A DNA stretch of 64,000 nucleotides from Escherichia phage CMS-2020a. Positions 2,763 through 37,252 of the stretch are shown here, in pieces. The notes beneath the pieces are model-generated. The model was not told the origin of the DNA, did no database searches, and saw only the letters and a program-made list of their open reading frames with translations. Made by a program: the position numbers and the translations under genes. The stretch's first letter is position 1; the number at the start of each line of letters is the position of its first letter. The stretch lies in sequence record CP053388.1; one strand, written 5' to 3'.

Positions 2763-5700
2763 TTAGTTACGTTGAGTGTTTGGGTTGAGTGATCCGCCAG
2801 GGCGTTTCTCTTGAGCGATAGTCTCAAGCGCGATTGCTTTCATCCGTTGAGCGGCATTGTTCCATATGCTTTCTGTATCGCCGGATTCAGTTGTGCTACC
2901 GTCACTATGGACGTTGATCTCAATTGATACCGGAGAAAGAACATTTCCTCCTCCACTCATACCATCGGTACTGAGCGTTACAGGGATTGTTCGACCATCA
3001 GGCAATGGAACATACGCCTCATTCATATCGCCTTCCCCAAACAACGCCAATTGAGGTGAGTTGGCGATACCGCCTTTCTGGTATGCCCGGAGCGGGATCA
3101 CGCCGTCTTTTCCGAATATGCCACCATTTGCAAACTTCGGAATTGCAGGAATACCATTCGTGCCATCGGCAGCAGAACTGGTCAGATTGTTGAACCCGGA
3201 AGTTGAGCCAGAAGAACCGGACATCAATCCATCGAATCCACCACCAGCCCATACTGAAACCAAACCAGATGCAACTGTCGCGCCGAAATTCAACCACTTA
3301 TTACCAGAGCCGGAAGCATTAGCTCCAAGCATTGCAAACGCGGCAGACAGAGCGCCGGTAACAGAGCTGAGGTTCTGCATCGAGAAGATGGAGTCCTTCA
3401 CTGCTTTTGTCTCAGCATCTTTGGCTTCGGTGCTATCAAATAGCCCCGATACCCAGCTACCAATCGCATTTGTTGCTGTGCCAATTGCGCTGGTGGTCTG
3501 CTGTGTTGTTTGCCCCAATCCAGTTACCGAACTGGACGTCTCCTTCGTGGCTTCTCCTACCGACTTGTCGCCATTAACAGTGTTGCCCATTCGTACACCT
3601 TGATTGGCAACGGCAGAAGCAACTCCAGTGAGCAAATTGCCACTCTGTGAACTACCAGCTGCGGTGGTTCCCATCCCCAACATGTTCATTAGAGGCAGCG
3701 TGATTTGCGACTTCACGACCATATTGGTGATATCTTTCAAAATGGACTGAGATAGGCTGGAGAAGCTCATCTTCCCGTTAATAACGAAATCAGTCAGGAC
3801 ATCAGTTAAGCCACTAAACAAATCAGTCCAGGTGCTTTCGATCTGCTCTGCCAAGTTTTCGTATTCCAGTGCCAACTTCTGCGTCGCAGTCCCCGTCTCT
3901 TTAATAAGCGCGGTATTGCCAGCAGCAATCAGTTGATTGATTTTCTTTGTATAAAGCGCCACAACTTTAGGATCAGACGCCTTATCACGAAGTTCTATCA
4001 ACGCTTTGAGATTGCGGTTGTAGGTGTCTTCGAAATCAGCAACTTTCTCTTCGCGAGACGGCGTATAGCCAGCACTAATAATGGAATCCGCCTCCGGTGC
4101 CCAAGTGGAGATCATCTGCTCAACATTGCGGCGATTAAACATCTCGCGATATTCAGGTGTCGCATTTTTGAGGTCTTCAAGACGTTTTTTCGCCTTGTCG
4201 ATCATCTCTTGAGTGATGAACTCGTTAGGTACCGCATTAGCCAAATCTGTCAGCGATTTCGTTGTATCGCGAAGAGACTGATCAAACGATACCGTAGCCT
4301 TAGAGCTTTCACCCATTTGCCCCATAAGCTGATCAGCTTTGTCCAGAGCCTTCTGGTATCCGGCTGCCAGTTTCTGTTGCGCTGCCTGTTCCTTCTTGGC
4401 CGCACGCTGCGAGGCGTTAGCTGATCGTTGGGCTGCTTTCTCGGCAGCTGCTGCATCCTGTTCACGAGCTTTAGTAAGTGCGGCAATGGCTGCGGCACGC
4501 TCTTCATCGCTCATTTTCTCCAGAGAGCTGGCACTGGATGCTTTCTGCAAATTAAGCTGCGTCTTGAGTTGTTTAGGCCCAATAATCGGCTTACCTTCGA
4601 AGTCCATCATCGGAGTGCCGTCAGGCAAAGTACGCTGATAAGTCGCAGAATCCATCTGGTTTCGCATATATTGCGCCAACGCCTTCTGAGCAGCTTTATC
4701 AGTTGTACCTAACCCAAGAACAGTCCCCTGGTTTGACATTACGCCCTTACCAGTTTTGGCCGCGTTATCTCTCTCGAACTCTGCCTGAGTCAGCTCCTGA
4801 GCAACGGCTTCCAAATGCTCCTGATAACCACGAATACTGCCTTGCAGTTTCTGGATCTGCTCGGTATTTCCATCCTTTTTGGCTTTTTCAAGCTGATCAT
4901 TAAGAGTCGCAATTTGCTTCTCGGTCGCATTCTTACGAGAAGAAAGTGAATCAACCAGTTTTTGCGCAGGCTCCAGATAGCTTTTGTTTACCGTTTCACG
5001 TAACGGTGCCAATAGCTTGTTCTTTTCGTCATCTGAAAGTGAACCGTCATCATTGATTTTCTGGATCTTATCCAGAGCCTCTTGCCGGGCTTTCACGAAT
5101 GTTGCCGCGAAAATCTGGTTTTCCGCTCGAATTTTCTCAATCTGAGATTCGGCAGCCTCTTTAGCCAAACGCTTTGCTACAGCGCCGTCACCAAGAGCTA
5201 TCGTGCCGGTTATCTTTTGATACTCCTCCTGATTTTTTTTCAGGCGTGCTTCGATGTCAGCCTTCGACTCTTTGTGAGTAATAACACCGGCAGAGTTAGA
5301 TACGTAATTAACACCCTCACCAGTTTTTAATGCTCGTTGATCAGCAAGAATCTGCTTTTCGAGCTTTTCTGCGCGGTCGGCCATTTGTGCACGTTTGGCC
5401 GCTGTCATCGCTTCTGGTATTTTCCTAATCTCGTCAACGACCTTTGAAGTTTCGCTGCGGAGCATGGTCATGTACGTGATTAGGCCAGCAACAGCTACAG
5501 TGGCAACTGTAAATGCTGCCCCTATAGGGTTTGCTGCAATGAACGCCGTTAATCCAGCAAAAGCGCCTTTAAGCCCCGTAATCGCCCCACGGATGGCGAA
5601 AATAAGAGAGGGGATCGGAGCCAGCCCCATACGTGCCGCACGATTGAATCGAGTTACTGCTGTAGCGCCGAGGTTAAATGGAGTCTGTATGGCGGTCGCC

Positions 5701-32105: not shown

Positions 32106-34139
32106 TTACTTAACTTGGTGGCCTGGTTTAGCACCAGCATCCGGGCTTAACAGGAAGATATCTTTTCCGCCAGGGCCAGCAGCCATCACCATGCCTTCGG
32201 AGATACCGAAGCGCATTTTACGCGGTGCCAGGTTAGCCACCATAATGGTGTGACGACCAATCAGTGCCTGTGGATCTGGATAAGCGGAACGAATGCCTGA
32301 GAAGACATTACGTTTTTCTCCGCCGAGATCCAGTGTCAGGCGCAGCAGTTTGTCAGAACCTTCGACAAACTCCGCGTTTTCAATCAGCGCCACACGCAGG
32401 TCAACTTTGGCGAAGTCGTCAAAGGTGATGGTTTCCTGAATCGGGGCGTCAGCCAGTGGGCCAGTTACCGGTGCAGCTGTGGCTTTCACTTCTTCTTTGG
32501 ATGCTTCCACCAGTGCTTCCACCTGTTTCATATCGATACGGTTATACAGTGCCTTGAACGGATTCACTTTATGGCCCAGCAGCGGTTGCTGGATACCATC
32601 CCAGGTCAGTTCTGTATTCAGGAATGCTTCTGCACGTTCAGTCAGTTTCGGCAGTACCGGTTTCAGGTACGTCATCAGCACGCGGAACAGGTTAATGCCC
32701 ATAGAGCAAATCGCCTGCAGATCGGCATCGCGTCCTTCCTGCTTCGCCACCACCCACGGAGCCTGTTCATCAACATAGCGGTTAGCCAGGTCAGCCAGTG
32801 CCATGATTTCACGGATAGCTTTGCCAAATTCGCGGCTTTCCCATGCTTCGCCAATCACTTCAGCGGCATCAGTAAAGGTTTTGTACAGTTGCGGGTCAGC
32901 CAGTTCGCTTGCCAGCACGCCGTCAAAACGCTTGTTGATAAAGCCTGCATTACGGGAGGCCAGGTTAACCACTTTGTTCACGATATCGGCATTCACGCGC
33001 TGAACGAAATCTTCCAGGTTGAGATCGATATCATCAATGCGCGAAGAGAGTTTCGCAGTGTAGTAGTAACGCAGGCTGTCGGCGTCAAAATGATTCAGCC
33101 AGGTGCTGGCTTTAATAAAGGTGCCGCGAGACTTGGACATCTTCGCACCGTTCACCGTCACATAGCCATGAACAAACAGGTTGGTCGGCTTGCGGAAGTT
33201 GCTGCCTTCTAGCATGGCAGGCCAGAACAGGCTGTGGAAGTAAACGATATCTTTGCCGATGAAGTGGTACAGCTCGGCGGTGGAGTCTTTCTTCCAGTAT
33301 TCGTCGAAGCTGGTAGTGTCGCCGCGTTTGTCGCACAGATTCTTGAAGGAACCCATGTAGCCAATCGGCGCGTCCAGCCAGACGTAGAAGTATTTGCCCG
33401 GTGCGTTCGGAATTTCAAAACCGAAGTAAGGTGCGTCACGGGAGATATCCCACTGTTGCAGGCCAGATTCAAACCACTCCTGCATTTTGTTTGCCACCTG
33501 CTCCTGCAACGCACCGCTGCGGGTCCATGCCTGCAACATTTCGCTGAAAGAAGGCAGATCAAAGAAGAAGTGTTCGGAATCACGCATTACCGGTGTAGCG
33601 CCAGAAACTACCGATTTCGGCTCGATCAGTTCCGTCGGGCTGTATGTCGCGCCGCAGACTTCACAGTTATCGCCGTATTGATCCGGCGCTTTACATTTCG
33701 GGCATGTGCCTTTTACAAAACGGTCCGGCAGGAACATGCCTTTTTCCGGGTCGTACAGCTGAGAGATGGTGCGGTTTTTAATAAAACCGTTCTCTTTCAG
33801 GCGAGTGTAGATAAGCTCGGACAACTGACGGTTCTCTTCGCTGTGCGTCGAGTGATAGTTGTCATAGCTGATGTTAAAGCCTGCGAAATCAGTCTGATGT
33901 TCCTGACTCATTTCGCCAATCATCTGCTCCGGTGTGATACCAAGCTGCTGTGCTTTCAGCATGATCGGCGTACCGTGGGCATCGTCGGCACAGATGAAAT
34001 TAACCTCGTGGCCGCGCATTCGCTGGTAACGAACCCAGACATCAGCCTGGATGTGCTCCAGCATATGGCCGAGGTGGATTGAGCCGTTAGCGTACGGCAG
34101 CGCGCACGTCACCAGAATTTTCTTCGCGACTTGGGTCAT
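32106..34139 (-). CDS. metG: Methionyl-tRNA synthetase
   Basis: 677 aa from [29 protein letters not shown] (HIGH motif) through KMSKS to the C-terminal dimerisation/tRNA-binding domain; matches E. coli MetG nearly residue for residue from memory. The track ORF (to 34268) adds a spurious 43-aa extension. Confidence 0.95.
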
Positions 34140-34296
34140 AGTAGGCATTACTTCTTTGTAGTGAAAAGGGGCTTGATAGTAACAAAATGGCCTTATGTCT
34201 GCCATGTGATAACAGCATTTCTCATAAATGATTAAATGTCGTAGCTGGAGTACACTACAAGGCGACAATTGCGCAAATTAAAATAAAGGAGACGGG

Positions 34297-35397
34297 ATGA
34301 GCGAGTCCAAATCGCCGGATGCCCTGAGAGCAATGGTAGCCGGTACGCTGGCTAATTTTCAGCACCCAACCCTGAAACACAACCTGACTACGCTTAAAGC
34401 GTTACACCATGTTGCGTTGATGGATGACACACTGCATGTCGAACTAATCATGCCTTTCGTGTGGAATAAGCCTTTTGAAGACCTGAAAGAGCAATGTAGT
34501 GGTGATCTGCTCCGTATCACTGGCGCAAAGGCTATTGACTGGAAGCTGTCGTACAACATTGCCACGCTTAAGCGTGTCAAAAACCAACCAGGCATTAATG
34601 GCGTTAAGAACATTATCGCCGTCAGCTCAGGCAAGGGCGGCGTGGGTAAATCCTCCACGGCGGTAAACCTGGCACTGGCGTTGGCTGCTGAAGGTGCGAA
34701 AGTTGGTATTTTGGATGCCGATATCTATGGTCCATCAATTCCAACCATGCTGGGCGCGGAAAACCAACGTCCAACCTCACCTGACGGTACTCACATGGCA
34801 CCTATCATGTCTCATGGCCTGGCAACCAACTCTATTGGTTATCTGGTCACCGACGACAATGCAATGGTGTGGCGTGGACCGATGGCCAGCAAGGCGCTGA
34901 TGCAGATGTTGCAGGAAACATTGTGGCCTGATCTGGACTATCTTGTTCTCGATATGCCGCCGGGCACTGGTGATATTCAGTTGACGCTGGCGCAGAACAT
35001 TCCTGTAACTGGTGCTGTTGTGGTAACTACGCCGCAAGACATCGCGCTGATCGATGCGAAGAAAGGCATTGTGATGTTCGAAAAAGTCGAAGTGCCGGTA
35101 CTGGGTATCGTTGAAAACATGAGTGTGCATATTTGCAGTAACTGCGGTCATCACGAGCCAATTTTTGGCACCGGTGGCGCACAGAAACTGGCCGAGAAAT
35201 ACAACACGCAGTTGTTAGGCCAAATGCCACTTCATATCTCTCTTCGTGAAGATCTGGATAACGGAACACCAACCGTTATTAGTCGTCCAGATAGCGAATT
35301 TACAGCTATTTATCGTGACCTCGCAGATCGCGTTGCCGCCCAAATGTATTGGCAAGGTGAAGTAATACCTGGCGAAATCGCATTCCGCGCAGTGTGA
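34297..35397 (+). CDS. apbC: Fe-S cluster carrier ATPase ApbC/Mrp
   Basis: Deviant Walker A SGKGGVGKSSTAVNLA, CxxC motif (ICSNCGHH); divergent from metG exactly as in the E. coli mrp-metG locus. Confidence 0.9.
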   Translation: MSESKSPDALRAMVAGTLANFQHPTLKHNLTTLKALHHVALMDDTLHVELIMPFVWNKPFEDLKEQCSGDLLRITGAKAIDWKLSYNIATLKRVKNQPGINGVKNIIAVSSGKGGVGKSSTAVNLALALAAEGAKVGILDADIYGPSIPTMLGAENQRPTSPDGTHMAPIMSHGLATNSIGYLVTDDNAMVWRGPMASKALMQMLQETLWPDLDYLVLDMPPGTGDIQLTLAQNIPVTGAVVVTTPQDIALIDAKKGIVMFEKVEVPVLGIVENMSVHICSNCGHHEPIFGTGGAQKLAEKYNTQLLGQMPLHISLREDLDNGTPTVISRPDSEFTAIYRDLADRVAAQMYWQGEVIPGEIAFRAV

Positions 35398-35434: not shown

Positions 35435-35824
35435 CTACATCACGGGACAATCATCAAACTCGCCACTTCTTGCGTCGTTGATAATGTGAGTGATCACACC
35501 AAACACGGCATTGCTGCCCGTGCATCCATCGTCATCCTTTGGCAATGCTTCCTTCTTACCGGTTCTTAAATCCTCCAGATGCTGACGTGGGTACTTCCGG
35601 TATCTTTTTACGCGATATTCCCCATCCAGAGCGCATACAAGCAGAGAACCATCAACCGGGGTAAGTGAGGAATCGACCACCAGCAATGCACCCTGTAATA
35701 TTCCCTCACGATGATGACTATCAGCTGCCCTCATGAAGTAGGTCGCTGAAGGATGTCTAATTATCTGCTGATCAAGAGAAATACGGCTCTCAACATAATC
35801 CGCCGCAGGAGAAGGGAAGCCCAT
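35435..35824 (-). CDS. umuD: UmuD'-like protein (pre-truncated UmuD analog, P1 HumD-like)
   Basis: Starts MGFPSPAADYVE, i.e. at the Gly after the UmuD Cys-Gly cleavage site; Ser and Lys of the catalytic dyad conserved in alignment; LexA box immediately upstream. Confidence 0.8.
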   Translation of the reverse strand: MGFPSPAADYVESRISLDQQIIRHPSATYFMRAADSHHREGILQGALLVVDSSLTPVDGSLLVCALDGEYRVKRYRKYPRQHLEDLRTGKKEALPKDDDGCTGSNAVFGVITHIINDARSGEFDDCPVM

Positions 35825-35840
35825 AATACTCGCCTCTTAA

Positions 35841-35860
35841 TACTGTATACACATACAGTA
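35841..35860. promoter_or_regulatory. LexA (SOS) box
   Basis: TACTGTATACACATACAGTA = CTGT-N8-ACAG palindrome, 17 bp upstream of the UmuD'-like start codon. Confidence 0.8.
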
Positions 35861-36180
35861 TATATTGAAGCTATATATTTTTGAACTCTATCTCTTAAAA
35901 AAGATGTTAATAAGATGCTAACTATTGAAAGGCATAAATATATACAATTCAAACAAACGTTATTTTTAACAAATTTTTTCTTCCCATTGACTTTTTCGAA
36001 CGCCTTGTCCGGTCTAAAGTGCGCAGAAGTCACTTTTTCCTTCCTGAGTTATCCACAGGCTTATGCACTTGCATGAAAAATCTATTCACACTATCTTAAT
36101 TCGCAAGACACTGATGTTGCAGTATTGAGGGTATGTTGGGTTAAAAATAGACATTAAAAAGCCCAGTTGACTAGGCTGGG

Positions 36181-36212
36181 CTTTTTAAAAGGAAACAGAG
36201 TTTGCGGCTCTG
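36181..36212 (+). terminator. Rho-independent terminator (plus orientation) in the AT-rich non-coding region
   Basis: Hairpin agcccagttgactaggctgggct followed by ttttt. Confidence 0.5.
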
Positions 36213-36582
36213 TTCCTGAGCCATAAGTATCTGGCGACTGAGCTAAGATTAACCGAATGTACTGGATTCATCAAGAAACGTTGAGTGGTCATACTAGGTA
36301 ATAATGACCATTTACTAAACATCGTTGTTCTCAAAGAAGATTTAAGTCCAGGTTTTTGGTGACTCTAAAACCTTACCTTAACTCGAAATCGTGCCGTAAG
36401 TATCTGGCGACTACAGATATTGCAACTGCAAAGGCAAGCTCAAAGGTATTTGCAGCTAGGTGCGATAAAACTAAGTGAGGCCTATAGTGCTTAACTTACT
36501 TTTCAAAATCGTGCCGCCTATGTTCGCAATCATCGAAGCGATCATTGAGTACGTCAACCAGCGCCCATAATGCTAGTTGTTA

Positions 36583-36612
36583 CCGGCCCCATCCAAATGG
36601 GGCCATTTTATT
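36583..36612 (+). terminator. Rho-independent terminator (plus orientation)
   Basis: Hairpin ggccccatccaaatggggcc followed by attttatt. Confidence 0.45.
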
Positions 36613-36619
36613 GTATTGA

Positions 36620-37252
36620 CTACATACTTTCTGATCTAATTGAGTTGTTCACTGCTCTGGCAATCTTCTCCCGCAATTGCTGCGCTCCGTGGTACTGAAC
36701 CGCAATATCCCGCAACTCGTTCACCAGTTCTCTAATCTGGTGATCTTTAAGCTCATTATTTGGGTGATGGGTAACAACTCTGGTTAATTCACCCTTGTCT
36801 TTTGCTCTTACGTATGCAGCTCTTGTGCATTCGACCCATGTATTACCGCCTACATTAACTTCGTAGATTAGGCTGGACTTATCTGTCAATTCGGAACAAA
36901 TACGGGCCGTGGTCTGGCAACTAGAGCATTCGCAGTTATCGCGGAAACCGTGATCTACCGGTCGAGAAAGAGGTTTAACTTTTTCATCCAACTTCATCAC
37001 AGCATCGTGATAAGCGTTCCAGCCGTCATCTTTACCAAGTTGATAAATCTCTGAAGGCTCCATGTAGTCTATATCGCAACCTTCTTCATCCGATCTATCT
37101 GGTCGCTTCCCTGGTAATCGCTCATAAAAACGTTTTCTGTCTCGACGTTCGGCTCTCAGAGCTAACGCAAGAAGTTGCTCAAGCGAGGTATTTGCACCAG
37201 CAATAATTTCATTGAGAATATCTTCTGTGAGATCTTTCGCTACCGTGCTCAT
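36620..37252 (-). CDS. Hypothetical protein
   Basis: 210 aa ORF coupled to the upstream gene. Confidence 0.5.
   Translation of the reverse strand: MSTVAKDLTEDILNEIIAGANTSLEQLLALALRAERRDRKRFYERLPGKRPDRSDEEGCDIDYMEPSEIYQLGKDDGWNAYHDAVMKLDEKVKPLSRPVDHGFRDNCECSSCQTTARICSELTDKSSLIYEVNVGGNTWVECTRAAYVRAKDKGELTRVVTHHPNNELKDHQIRELVNELRDIAVQYHGAQQLREKIARAVNNSIRSESM

What the first reader, a model, noticed from the sequence alone, without database searches (positions are those of the whole stretch)
35862..36619. AT-rich 760-bp non-coding region with plus-strand terminators and short direct repeats
Between the UmuD'-like gene and the first early gene there is no convincing ORF, but there are two plus-oriented intrinsic terminators (36181-36212, 36583-36612) opposite to the minus-strand genes, and direct repeats taagtatctggcgact (36225-36240, 36398-36413) and aaatcgtgccg (36384, 36507). 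This suggests one or two small plus-strand RNAs, for example antisense or immunity RNAs.
Basis: seen in the sequence. Interest (0 to 1): 0.45.

Follow-up and report, generated by a model that had tools for sequence, protein, structure and literature searches.

The report
Unannotated small-RNA-controlled toxin peptide module
The "empty" 760-bp gap on this E. coli phage-plasmid most likely holds an unannotated type I toxin-antitoxin cassette, in which a small antisense RNA controls a 27-amino-acid membrane-type peptide; it is a distant, so far undescribed cousin of the dinQ/agrB plasmid-addiction systems.

Summary
The window comes from an SSU5/Cyrano-like ~110-kb E. coli phage-plasmid. The AT-rich gap, the 16-nt direct repeat and the second terminator are real. 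The first "plus-strand terminator" is not one, and the gap is not ORF-free.

Comparison of 56 homologous cassettes (42 unique) from plasmids, phage-plasmids and viral contigs shows three parts:
- **sRNA:** an ~85-nt RNA on the minus strand (36239→36155). Its promoter is conserved (TTGATG-17-TAATCT), and it has a 5' single-stranded tail, a covarying hairpin and a terminator.
- **mRNA:** a plus-strand transcript with a structured leader, an SD, a conserved 27-codon ORF (36487-36570, MLNLLFKIVPPMFAIIEAIIEYVNQRP) and the terminator at 36585-36604.
- **Pairing:** the direct repeat is the sRNA tail and its 20-24-nt target in the leader, 74 nt upstream of the start codon. The duplex is kept by compensatory and wobble-only changes.

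The layout, the target-to-start distance (dinQ 75, dqlB 76), the sRNA shape and its hairpin apex resemble dinQ/agrB. However, the Rfam, NCBIfam, Pfam and BLAST membership tests all fail. I file it as a new divergent family of a known kind, probably a plasmid-addiction module.

No transcript or toxicity data exist. A conserved upstream block (DnaA boxes plus promoter P2, shared with P1 and P7) remains unexplained.

The parts
36155..36239 (-). Predicted antitoxin-like sRNA (~85 nt). It has a 5' single-stranded tail AGUCGCCAGAUACUUAUGGC (36239-36220), hairpin 1 (36216-36191) and a terminator hairpin plus U-run (36188-36155).
   Evidence: MFE is -34 kcal/mol, z = -5.9. RNAalifold on 23 unique homologues finds compensatory pairs in both hairpins. 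The covariance model R1 scores this site at 88 bits. Rfam gives only sub-threshold hits to antitoxin sRNAs: AgrB 27.6 bits against a gathering score of 40.
36246..36274 (-). Promoter of the sRNA: -35 TTGATG (36274-36269), a 17-nt spacer, -10 TAATCT (36251-36246), then 6 nt to the +1 A at 36239.
   Evidence: 55 of 56 cassettes carry TTGA[AT]G-17-TAA[GT][CA]T at a fixed 6 nt from the AG(U/C)(C/U)GCC start, while the discriminator varies (alignment).
36154..36188 (.). Bidirectional terminator hairpin (TTAAAAAGCCCAG / CTGGGCTTTTTAA). It ends the minus-strand sRNA and could also stop plus-strand transcripts coming from P2.
   Evidence: The arms are a 13-nt perfect inverted repeat. The scan reports a terminator on the minus strand. 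The T5 run on the plus side can be read directly.
36393..36412 (+). Target of the sRNA tail in the mRNA leader (GCCGUAAGUAUCUGGCGACU). The duplex is 20 bp with one G:U, and the site ends 74 nt upstream of the start codon.
   Evidence: Direct repeat D1. Duplex energy is -38.5 kcal/mol against -16.0 +/- 2.4 for shuffles; it is the best site in 64 kb apart from the sRNA's own antisense. Across the family, 24 pairs are 96% paired, 5 pairs carry compensatory changes, and 0 of 500 shuffles reach the observed value. Of 9 differences between the two copies, 8 are wobble-compatible only in this polarity.
36348..36486 (+). Structured 5' leader of the peptide mRNA. It contains a 5' hairpin (36350-36373), a closing helix UCGUGCC (36389-36395) : GGUGCGA (36459-36465), the target hairpin GUAUCUG-GCGACUA-CAGAUAU (36400-36420), the hairpin CUGCAAA...UUUGCAG (36426-36455) and the SD GAGG (36477-36480). 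The exact 5' end is not known.
   Evidence: RNAalifold on 18 unique leaders predicts 25 pairs, 5 of them with compensatory changes, for example UUAGUC:GACUAA in L072.
36487..36570 (+). Small ORF (GTG start, 27 aa plus stop): MLNLLFKIVPPMFAIIEAIIEYVNQRP. This is the 'type B' hydrophobic peptide, the candidate toxin.
   Evidence: The GTG aligns with ATG in close relatives. There are 14 unique nucleotide variants, all open, with variable sites by codon position 12/5/23. All 56 cassettes keep at least one intact ORF. The ORF is unannotated in all 30 plasmid records listed, out of 93 that match.
36585..36610 (+). Intrinsic terminator of the peptide mRNA (GGCCCCATCCAAATGGGGCC + ATTTTATTG). It is convergent with the end of the minus-strand 210-aa gene (stop at 36620).
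   Evidence: Terminator scan. A GC-rich hairpin with a T run sits at the same position in the homologues.
36503..36516 (+). Like the leader copy (36383-36396), it can pair with GGUGCGAU (36459-36466).
   Evidence: Repeat D2. The window MFE pairs GGUGCGAU with this ORF copy. This pairing is kept only in the window clade (Val codon GTG; GTA elsewhere), so its role is uncertain.
35960..36105 (+). Conserved 'left block' that accompanies every cassette and is shared with P1 and P7. It holds a T-tract, ATTGACt, a perfect DnaA box TTATCCACA (36049-36057), a second box-like TTATGCACT (36061-36069), and promoter-like P2 (TTGCAT 36069-36074, 17 nt, TATCTT 36092-36097) pointing at the sRNA terminator. 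Its function is not resolved.
   Evidence: Alignment with P1, P7 and 20 cassettes. P2 lies at a conserved position (TTGTAC-16-TAGAAT in other clades). DnaA boxes occur in 17 of 33 unique left regions, against 6 per 128 kb of background. No conserved RNA structure is found upstream of P2.
35841..35860 (.). LexA box TACTGTATACACATACAGTA, overlapping the promoter of the humD/umuD'-like S24 peptidase gene (35435-35824, minus strand). It is context, not part of the cassette.
   Evidence: Sequence. A promoter-like site lies on the minus strand at 35885..35857. P1 annotates a LexA site at the same place next to humD. The gene is annotated as S24 family peptidase in RefSeq.

Best explanation
The right two-thirds of the gap (about 36155-36610) is a type I toxin-antitoxin-like cassette.

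**Components**
- A constitutive-looking promoter on the minus strand makes an ~85-nt sRNA. The sRNA has a free 5' tail, one hairpin and a terminator.
- The plus strand makes a small mRNA. It has a long structured leader, an SD, a 27-codon ORF for a hydrophobic peptide and its own terminator.
- The sRNA gene lies upstream of the mRNA, is transcribed divergently and does not overlap it. The complementarity therefore shows up in DNA as a direct repeat.

**Proposed mechanism**
- The sRNA tail pairs over 20-24 nt with the leader. It starts at the loop of a target hairpin and also covers the 5' strand of the helix that closes the leader domain.
- The site lies 74 nt upstream of the start codon, so repression cannot be direct masking of the SD.
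- By analogy with dinQ/agrB, pairing is inferred to refold the leader so that the ribosome-binding site closes. Alternatively it blocks a ribosome standby site. It would also create an RNase III substrate.
- On a low-copy phage-plasmid the likely role is post-segregational killing (addiction). An abortive-infection or competition role is possible.

**Shown (computationally):** the sRNA structure and promoter; the coding nature of the ORF; the leader structure; the selected intermolecular pairing and its polarity.

**Inferred:** that both RNAs are made; the mRNA 5' end; toxicity of the peptide; the mode of repression; the biological role.
For: **Origin**
- 110 of 120 matching places in E. coli records lie on plasmids, those listed being ~110 kb. 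Phage Cyrano matches at 93%.

**Spread**
- Cassettes lie in unannotated gaps of unrelated replicons: next to repA of an F-type Kosakonia plasmid, next to a RepB origin in Citrobacter, and elsewhere.
- 56 cassettes were collected.

**sRNA**
- z = -5.9; covariation in both hairpins; promoter conserved in 55 of 56.

**Pairing**
- 96% of cells are paired, 5 positions are compensatory, and 0 of 500 shuffles reach the observed value.
- Duplex energy is -38.5 kcal/mol against -16 +/- 2.4 for shuffles.
- 8 of 9 copy differences are A>G or C>T, tolerated only if copy 1 is read from the minus strand and copy 2 from the plus strand.

**ORF**
- Codon-position pattern 12/5/23; always open; GTG aligned with ATG.

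**Leader**
- Compensatory changes in the closing helix.
- The target-to-start distance is constant at 72-76 nt. It equals dinQ (75) and dqlB (76).

**Similarity to dinQ/agrB**
- Rfam AgrB hits the sRNA at 27.6 bits.
- The family model R1 finds AgrB and AgrA as its two best hits in the dinQ locus.
- The hairpin apex is 13/15 identical.

**Literature**
- The same gene layout is described for ShoB/OhsC, TisB/IstR-1, Zor/Orz and DinQ/AgrB (PMC8594479).
- The far-upstream antisense mechanism of dinQ is described in PMC5066626.
- DqlB-agrB is a proven addiction module in an unannotated gap of pOXA-48 (PMC12365149).
Against: - No transcript, toxicity or repression data exist for this locus. The Cyrano paper counted RNA-seq reads per annotated gene only and does not list this locus.
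- No good sigma-70 promoter lies just upstream of the leader in the window clade. Other clades have TTTACT-17-TTTAGT or TTGAGA-16-TTTAAA at the equivalent place. The mRNA start is therefore uncertain and could be P2.
- Thermodynamic modelling predicts no change in SD accessibility when the target is blocked, so the refolding step has no computational support.
- The peptide has two prolines and two acidic residues in its hydrophobic stretch. It matches no toxin family in Pfam, NCBIfam, PHROGs or PADLOC.
- Concerted change of two direct repeats could in principle also come from gene conversion.
Confidence: 0.72

Rival explanations
1. Same components, different wiring. The peptide mRNA starts at the conserved promoter P2 (36069-36097) and reads through the hairpin at 36154-36188. 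The sRNA gene then lies antisense inside a ~380-nt 5' UTR, as in Ldr/Rdl or Hok/Sok. The downstream repeat would be a second sRNA site on a processed form.
For: - P2 is the best-conserved promoter of the locus and is present in every cassette.
- The window clade lacks a convincing promoter just before the leader.
- In most clades the plus-side T run of the hairpin is weak (CTTTC).
- In P1 and P7 the same block and P2 precede a leader and a 45-aa hydrophobic ORF. An antisense promoter (TTGACG-17-TATAGT) lies inside that leader, and the 5' and 3' ends are complementary.
Against: - In the window clade the hairpin is a textbook terminator on the plus strand as well (GGGCTTTTT).
- The downstream target is under strong selection for pairing. 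That would be redundant if the mRNA already carried the perfect 85-nt complement.
- Several clades have decent promoters at a conserved position just upstream of the 5' hairpin.
Confidence: 0.2
2. The peptide is not a toxin. It is a small membrane protein with a physiological or phage-related role (for example modulating a transporter or superinfection), whose synthesis happens to be tuned by a neighbouring sRNA.
For: - The peptide matches no toxin family.
- It has a Pro-Pro kink and conserved acidic residues.
- Not every sRNA-controlled small hydrophobic protein is toxic (general knowledge).
Against: - The cassette moves as a unit between unrelated plasmids and sits next to replication genes, as addiction modules do.
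- It occurs as A-only, B-only and A+B versions, which is typical of toxin duplication.
- Its architecture is very close to dinQ/dqlB, whose peptides are toxic.
Confidence: 0.15
3. One reading: the gap encodes one or two non-coding plus-strand RNAs (antisense or immunity RNAs) ended by two plus-strand terminators.
For: - The 36585 terminator is plus-oriented.
- P2 together with the bidirectional hairpin could give an ~85-nt plus-strand RNA, about 36104-36188.
Against: - The '36181-36212 terminator' has no T run on the plus strand.
- The transcript ending at 36610 carries a conserved coding ORF.
- The polarity of wobble changes puts the regulator on the minus strand.
- There is no complementarity to any other site in the 64-kb window.
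Confidence: 0.07
4. The direct repeats are DNA sites, such as iterons or operators for a plasmid or phage protein, and the hairpins are incidental.
For: - The repeats change in concert between lineages, as protein-binding sites would.
- DnaA boxes and replication genes lie nearby in several elements.
Against: - Differences between the two copies are confined to A>G and C>T in one direction (8 of 9; 0 of 9 in the reverse polarity). Protein sites would not show this.
- Copy 1 always sits 6 nt downstream of a conserved -10 and directly upstream of two covarying hairpins.
- Copy 2 lies inside a covarying RNA domain.
- The cassette occurs on unrelated replicons.
Confidence: 0.03

Closest known systems
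dinQ/agrB of E. coli and the plasmid-borne dqlB/agrB (DinQ-like) type I toxin-antitoxin systems
   Same: - The sRNA gene lies upstream of the toxin mRNA, is divergent and does not overlap it. Complementarity is visible as a DNA direct repeat (PMC8594479).
- The sRNA has a 5' tail, one hairpin and a terminator.
- The hairpin apex is CAGAGCCGCAAACUC here and CAGAGCCACCAACUC in AgrB.
- The nucleotides between target and start codon number 74 here, 75 in dinQ and 76 in dqlB.
- The peptide is 27 aa with a GTG start, like DinQ. Its N-terminus MVNLL resembles the MINLL of DqlB.
- The cassette lies in unannotated gaps next to plasmid replication genes, as dqlB does on pOXA-48.
- Weak reciprocal RNA-model hits link the two families.
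   Different: - No BLAST-level similarity exists to the dinQ or dqlB loci, although that similarity defines the dql genes (PMC5066626).
- The peptides miss the NCBIfam DinQ and DqlB models.
- Rfam AgrB scores below its gathering score (27.6 against 40).
- The leader folds differently.
- The peptides carry a Pro or Pro-Pro motif.
- Many cassettes carry two paralogous ORFs (A+B) behind one sRNA target.
- There is no LexA box at the toxin promoter.
- A conserved left block with P2 and DnaA boxes is always attached.
- The hosts are SSU5-like and other phage-plasmids rather than mainly conjugative plasmids.
tisB/istR-1 and zorO/orzO (E. coli)
   Same: [quoted passage not shown] In tisB this is a standby site ~100 nt upstream (PMC5934652). 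In zorO it is the EAP region (PMC11264685).
- The peptide is a 29-aa hydrophobic molecule.
- OrzO-P gives a sub-threshold Rfam hit on a homologue (34.2 bits in L007).
   Different: - There is no sequence similarity.
- The TisB model does not match the peptides, although it detects the TisB control.
- OrzO-P stays far below its gathering score of 60.
- Those loci are chromosomal; tisB is LexA-controlled.
Ldr/Rdl and Fst/RNAII superfamily
   Same: These are small hydrophobic peptides with a conserved proline inside the hydrophobic helix and a basic C-terminus. The 'type A' peptide LKLAHPVAAIITALLGY.KDR looks like Ldr ..DLAAPILAGIITAAIV.WWRNRK (Ldr sequence recalled from memory).
   Different: - Pfam Ldr_toxin detects the Ldr control at 86 bits but none of the peptides here.
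- BLASTP finds no alignment.
[quoted passage not shown]
P1/P7 region between humD/hot and pmgV (upfM-upfO)
   Same: The left block of the gap (35826-36076) is ~79% identical to P7 and P1, including the DnaA box and P2. The block is syntenic with a humD-like gene and its LexA box.
   Different: Downstream of P2, P1 and P7 carry a different leader and a 45-aa hydrophobic ORF instead of the sRNA and 27-aa cassette. No function is published for this P1 region as far as I could find.

Membership tests
Type I toxin-antitoxin system (generic) | Small (<60 aa) hydrophobic peptide gene | tested here: met
   The ORF has 27 codons. GRAVY is about 0.86 (hand calculation). The ORF is conserved and evolves as a coding sequence. 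Definition taken from PMC2887945.
Type I toxin-antitoxin system (generic) | Antisense sRNA with selected complementarity to the toxin mRNA | tested here: met
   The duplex spans 20-24 bp, 96% paired across the family, with 5 compensatory positions and wobble-only differences in one polarity. This is computational evidence only.
Type I toxin-antitoxin system (generic) | Peptide toxic on expression; sRNA neutralises it; both RNAs expressed | not testable with these tools
   No expression or toxicity data were found.
DinQ/AgrB (dinQ, dqlA, dqlB) | Peptide matches the DinQ or DqlB protein model | tested here: not met
   NCBIfam gives no hit for any of 8 peptides at E<=10, while the DinQ control hits NF041472 at 54 bits. 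hhalign against DqlB gives 36% probability.
DinQ/AgrB (dinQ, dqlA, dqlB) | Nucleotide similarity to the dinQ 5' UTR (the criterion used to define dql genes, PMC5066626) | tested here: not met
   blastn of the cassette against 5426 E. coli genomes hits no dinQ locus. Word-7 blastn of all cassettes against the dinQ and dqlB loci finds nothing at E<=0.1. The dinQ query itself finds 2976 plasmids. No DqlA sequence was available, so DqlA was tested only indirectly.
DinQ/AgrB (dinQ, dqlA, dqlB) | sRNA reaches the Rfam AgrB (RF02891) gathering score | tested here: not met
   27.6 bits against 40. In the reverse direction, R1 scores AgrB at 17.6 bits and AgrA at 15.3 bits. These hits are weak but specific.
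DinQ/AgrB (dinQ, dqlA, dqlB) | Layout: sRNA 5' of the mRNA, non-overlapping, pairing ~75 nt upstream of the start codon | tested here: met
   74 nt in the window and 72-76 nt in the family, against 75 in dinQ and 76 in dqlB.
DinQ/AgrB (dinQ proper) and TisB/IstR-1 | LexA box at the toxin promoter | tested here: not met
   The only LexA box, at 35841-35860, belongs to the humD-like gene ~490 nt upstream of the leader. None is found between the sRNA gene and the leader in any cassette.
Zor/Orz | sRNA reaches the Rfam OrzO-P (RF02083) gathering score; ZorO-like peptide | tested here: not met
   34.2 bits against 60 in L007. In the window only 21.8 bits, on the other strand. No peptide similarity. 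ZorO itself hit no model in either library, so no protein model could be used for this test.
TisB/IstR-1 | Peptide matches the TisB models | tested here: not met
   There are no hits for the peptides here. The TisB control hits TIGR04459 and PF13939.
Ldr/Fst superfamily | Peptide matches Pfam Ldr_toxin or Fst_toxin | tested here: not met
   There are no hits. The Ldr control scores 86 bits. BLASTP finds no alignment.
Hok/Sok | Hok/Gef peptide; antisense RNA overlapped by the mRNA | tested here: not met
   There is no Pfam hit and no Rfam Sok hit. In the favoured model the sRNA does not overlap the mRNA, but the P2 read-through rival would make it overlapped.

The most novel reading that the evidence does not exclude
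The cassette may be a three-RNA system rather than a two-RNA one.

- The always-attached left block drives a third, plus-strand RNA from promoter P2 (about 36104-36188). P2 is flanked or followed by DnaA boxes.
- This RNA converges on the antitoxin sRNA and shares its terminator.
- It would act as an 'anti-antitoxin', by transcriptional interference or by pairing with the sRNA 3' hairpin.
- Release of the toxin would then be coupled to DnaA or replication status of the phage-plasmid.
- The same control block in P1 and P7 would govern a different, also unrecognised, toxin-like 45-aa peptide.
Probability: 0.1. Interest if true: 0.7.

Novelty: new member of a known kind. Interest (0 to 1): 0.45.

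Why it matters
- SSU5-like phage-plasmids occur in about 2% of complete E. coli genomes (115-119 of 5426), and their maintenance functions are only partly known. This gap would add an RNA-controlled addiction or defence module that no annotation pipeline sees. The ORF is unannotated in every plasmid record listed out of the 93 that match, and the peptide family has 3 hits among 1.84 billion representative proteins.
- The cassette would extend the dinQ/agrB kind of system to a branch too diverged for the current Rfam, NCBIfam and BLAST definitions. It also shows that the target-to-start distance of ~75 nt and the sRNA hairpin apex are the most conserved traits. That is useful for understanding how far-upstream antisense pairing shuts off translation.
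- The natural A-only, B-only and A+B versions offer a ready test set.

Tried and rejected
1. **Rfam.** No family reaches its gathering score in the window or in seven related loci. No tRNA or tmRNA is present.
2. **Ldr/Fst membership of the peptides.** Rejected by HMM with a positive control and by BLASTP.
3. **SOS control of the cassette.** LexA boxes recur to the left of the cassette in several lineages. They belong to neighbouring humD-like S24 peptidase genes on the other strand. This is synteny, not evidence of regulation.
4. **A simple structural switch.** Blocking the target does not change predicted SD accessibility in 11 homologues.
5. **The 53-aa ORF at 35915-36076 and the 40-aa and 31-aa plus-strand ORFs.** They are not conserved outside the window/P7 clade, or they are only N-terminal extensions. 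One record annotates an 81-aa hypothetical protein there.
6. **An RNA structure in the left block upstream of P2.** None is found on either strand. I also checked by eye for Xer/cer-like sites and alternative-sigma promoters there and found nothing convincing.
7. **A target for the 5' end of the putative P2 RNA.** That 5' end resembles the sRNA tail, but no second site exists in the window, so I treat the resemblance as chance.
8. **Pattern scan of genome contigs.** The pattern was too loose. Most hits were chance matches lacking the upstream repeat copy, and only 6 were true.
9. **The search for homologous proteins.** It refuses queries under 40 aa.
10. **Literature.** No paper contains the peptide or sRNA strings. 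Nothing was found on small RNAs near P1 humD. The Cyrano paper lists KacT, RelE and HicA but not this locus.
Full report
**Where the window comes from**

The 815 bases around the finding match 120 E. coli records, with 110 of the 120 matching places on plasmids (those listed are ~110 kb). They also match the phage-plasmid Cyrano (pLF82, SSU5-like) at 93%. In those records metG, apbC and an S24 peptidase gene lie to the left, exactly as in the window. The metG and apbC copies are therefore plasmid-borne, and the 'UmuD'-like gene' is the counterpart of P1 humD. A perfect LexA box (35841-35860) overlaps its promoter.

**Checking the observation**

- The gap is AT-rich: GC is 0.34-0.40, against 0.44-0.55 in the flanks.
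- The 16-mer occurs exactly twice in 64 kb, against 0.03 expected by chance. The repeat extends to 20 nt.
- The 14-nt second repeat is real.
- The hairpin at 36585-36604 with its T run is a plus-strand terminator.
The hairpin 36191-36216 has no T run after it on the plus strand.
- Next to it lies a perfectly symmetrical A5-stem-loop-stem-T5 element (36154-36188), which can terminate in both directions.

**Relatives**

A blastn search of plasmids found close copies and also 68-82% identical fragments in unannotated gaps of unrelated replicons. These include a conjugative F-type Kosakonia plasmid next to repA, and Citrobacter and Enterobacter plasmids, one of them next to a RepB origin with iterons. 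A pattern taken from the conserved leader retrieved 47 further loci from viral contigs and 6 from genomes. Chance matches were removed by requiring the upstream repeat copy. This gave 56 cassettes, 42 of them unique.

**The minus-strand sRNA**

In every cassette, repeat copy 1 sits 6 nt downstream of a conserved promoter on the minus strand. The promoter is TTGA[AT]G, exactly 17 nt, then TAA[GT][CA]T, and it is present in 55 of 56 cassettes. In the window it is TTGATG 36274-36269 and TAATCT 36251-36246.

The transcript would start AGUCGCC... at 36239. It consists of a ~22-nt unpaired tail, hairpin 1 and the terminator hairpin, ending near 36155.
- The window RNA folds at -34 kcal/mol, z = -5.9.
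- Both hairpins show compensatory changes across 23 unique sequences.
- A covariance model of the family scores the window copy at 88 bits.

**The plus-strand mRNA and its ORF**

Downstream of copy 2, all cassettes have a conserved hairpin (CUGCAAA...UUUGCAG), an SD, one or two small ORFs and a terminator. Two paralogous peptide types exist:
- Type A, for example MALLLLFLKLAHPVAAIITALLGYLKDR.
- Type B, for example MVNLLFKIVPPMFAIIKAIIEYVNQRP.

Cassettes carry B alone (the window and Cyrano), A alone, or A followed by B.

The window ORF (36487-36570) starts with GTG where close relatives have ATG. It has a GAGG SD 6 nt upstream. Among 14 unique type B sequences, variable sites fall 12/5/23 on codon positions 1/2/3, and the frame is never broken. 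It is a real coding gene.

The ORF is unannotated in the 30 plasmid records listed, out of 93 that match. The peptide is nearly absent from protein collections, with 3 hits in 1.84 billion representatives and unnamed entries only.

**The repeat is an RNA:RNA duplex**

The sRNA tail is complementary to copy 2 over 20 bp in the window and up to 24 bp elsewhere.
- Over 11 distinct pairs of sequences, 96% of cells pair.
- Five positions change on both sides: UC>CU with GA>AG, A>G with U>C, and two A/U swaps in the window clade.
- No shuffle of 500 reaches the observed values, and sliding the register destroys pairing.
- The hybrid is -38.5 kcal/mol, against -16.0 +/- 2.4 for shuffled mRNA. Nothing else in the 64-kb window comes close, apart from the sRNA's own antisense.

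The differences between the two DNA copies are decisive for polarity. They are A>G or C>T in 8 of 9 cases. These give U:G or G:U pairs only if copy 1 is transcribed from the minus strand and copy 2 from the plus strand. None would be tolerated in the opposite arrangement. This argues against protein-binding repeats or mere gene conversion.

**The leader**

RNAalifold on 18 unique leaders gives the following:
- a closing helix, UCGUGCC 36389-36395 with GGUGCGA 36459-36465, with full covariation in L072 (UUAGUC:GACUAA);
- a target hairpin whose loop, GCGACUA, presents the nucleotides that meet the first bases of the sRNA;
- the invariant CUGCAAA hairpin.

A 5' hairpin (36350-36373) covaries too.

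The sRNA footprint covers the loop and the 5' arm of the target hairpin. In most clades it also covers the 5' strand of the closing helix.

The target ends 72-76 nt before the first start codon in all cassettes. Direct masking of the SD is therefore excluded.

**What it resembles**

Rfam gives only sub-threshold hits, all to antitoxin sRNAs: AgrB at 27.6 bits against 40, and OrzO-P at 34.2 bits against 60 in a homologue.

I fetched the dinQ-agrAB locus of MG1655 and a dqlB locus of an IncX4 plasmid. They have the same plan:
- the sRNA gene lies upstream and divergent;
- a direct repeat marks the sRNA tail and the leader target;
- the target ends 75 nt (dinQ) or 76 nt (dqlB) before the start codon, against 74 nt here;
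- DinQ is 27 aa with a GTG start.

Further points of similarity:
- The apex of hairpin 1 is CAGAGCCGCAAACUC here and CAGAGCCACCAACUC in AgrB.
- With filters off, my family model picks AgrB and AgrA as its two best hits in the dinQ locus. Both are full length and on the right strand (17.6 and 15.3 bits).
- DqlB (MINLLIIVL...) aligns weakly with type B (hhalign 36% probability).

Every formal membership test fails:
- There is no blastn similarity to the dinQ or dql loci. That similarity is what defines dql genes (PMC5066626).
- There is no hit to NCBIfam DinQ, DqlB or TisB, or to Pfam Ldr, TisB or other models. The DinQ, TisB and Ldr controls score 54-86 bits.

I therefore call it a new, divergent family of the dinQ/agrB kind, not a member of that family.

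**How it probably works**

For dinQ, AgrB binding far upstream sequesters 'sequence 2'. This lets the SD hairpin close and creates an RNase III site (PMC5066626). For tisB, IstR-1 blocks a standby site ~100 nt upstream (PMC5934652). DqlB-agrB on pOXA-48 is an experimentally proven addiction module that also hid in an unannotated gap next to repA (PMC12365149).

By analogy, the sRNA here would open the closing helix and free GGUGCGA, which lies 12 nt before the SD. [quoted passage not shown] That gives the second repeat a possible role.

Two points weaken this. The pairing is not conserved outside the window clade (GTA instead of GTG). Thermodynamic modelling shows no change in SD accessibility when the target is blocked. 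The repression step is therefore inferred, not shown.

**What remains open**

1. *Where the mRNA starts.* Several clades have a reasonable promoter just before the 5' hairpin. The window clade does not.
2. *What the left block does.* Roughly 35960-36105 accompanies every cassette and is shared with P1 and P7 (79% identity over 35826-36076).
   - It holds a perfect DnaA box (36049-36057) and a second box-like site.
   - It holds a well-conserved promoter, P2 (36069-36097), which points at the sRNA terminator.
   - DnaA boxes are strongly enriched there in several lineages.
   - No RNA structure is conserved upstream of P2.
   - P2 could make a short convergent RNA (about 36104-36188), or it could be the true toxin promoter.
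3. *The P1 parallel.* In P1 and P7 the same block precedes a different leader and a 45-aa hydrophobic ORF. That leader has an internal antisense promoter and complementary 5' and 3' ends. This favours the idea that P2 drives toxin-type mRNAs.
4. *Missing experiments.* No expression or toxicity data exist.

**Verdict**

The best explanation is an unannotated type I toxin-antitoxin-like cassette of a new family related in design to dinQ/agrB, and perhaps related by descent. I put confidence at about 0.7 for the module and lower for the addiction role. It is of moderate interest: the kind is known, but the family and its conserved control block are undescribed.

Noticed in passing
L002 (phage P1, NC_005856.1) locus 2886-3023 plus strand = record 85995-86129 minus strand; also P7 (L003 3017-3154) and SJ46: P1-like phages carry a conserved 45-aa hydrophobic ORF (MTAFFQFLSAFLDAPVISQILAIILIIVLILLLRSVKNGIMHWLT), unannotated in P1 and P7. 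It lies downstream of the same left block and P2 promoter, antisense to 'upfM'. A strong antisense promoter (TTGACG-17-TATAGT, annotated PupfN) sits inside its leader, and 15-nt and 12-nt complementarities link the 5' and 3' ends, as in hok mRNA. This looks like an unrecognised type I toxin-antitoxin candidate in P1. The ORF is found in 13 phage records and matches no Pfam, PHROG or PADLOC family.
   Followed up: partly
window 35960-36105, and the equivalent block in all cassette loci: A ~150-nt non-coding block travels with the cassette and is shared with P1 and P7. It contains a T-tract, ATTGACAT, AGGCCTTA, DnaA boxes, and promoter P2 aimed at the sRNA terminator. Its function is unknown, and no conserved RNA structure lies upstream of P2.
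   Followed up: partly
window 32106-35397: The phage-plasmid carries full-length copies of metG (methionyl-tRNA synthetase) and apbC/mrp next to the humD-like gene. Cyrano and the RefSeq plasmids have the same arrangement. These are housekeeping-type genes on a phage-plasmid.
   Followed up: no
L007, L012, L014 (and P1): 600-1400 nt left of the cassette: A humD/umuD'-like S24 peptidase gene (MGFPSPA.DYAE...) with a perfect LexA box recurs to the left of the cassette in several otherwise different elements. The humD ... left block ... cassette order is therefore an old synteny among phage-plasmids.
   Followed up: partly
L011, L022 and relatives (viral contigs), first ORF of A+B cassettes: In this lineage the start codon of the type A ORF reads ATA instead of ATG, while type B stays intact. 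This suggests loss of one of the two paralogous peptides.
   Followed up: no
L082 (JAEWTL010000044.1, labelled 'Bacillota bacterium' MAG): This contig carries a cassette and flank nearly identical to the E. coli phage-plasmid version. It is probably a mis-binned enterobacterial phage-plasmid contig in a Bacillota MAG.
   Followed up: no
E. coli chromosomes (e.g. NZ_CP042588.1 1469516-1469984; 10 places in all): Ten of the E. coli matches lie on chromosomes rather than plasmids. They may be integrated copies of the phage-plasmid or assembly joins. I did not examine them.
   Followed up: no
window 36099-36111: The predicted 5' end of a P2 transcript (AUUCGCAAGACAC) resembles the sRNA tail (AGUCGCCAGAUAC), and together with the shared terminator it gives a weak hit of the sRNA model on the plus strand (13.8 bits). 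No complementary second site exists in the window, so this is probably chance.
   Followed up: yes
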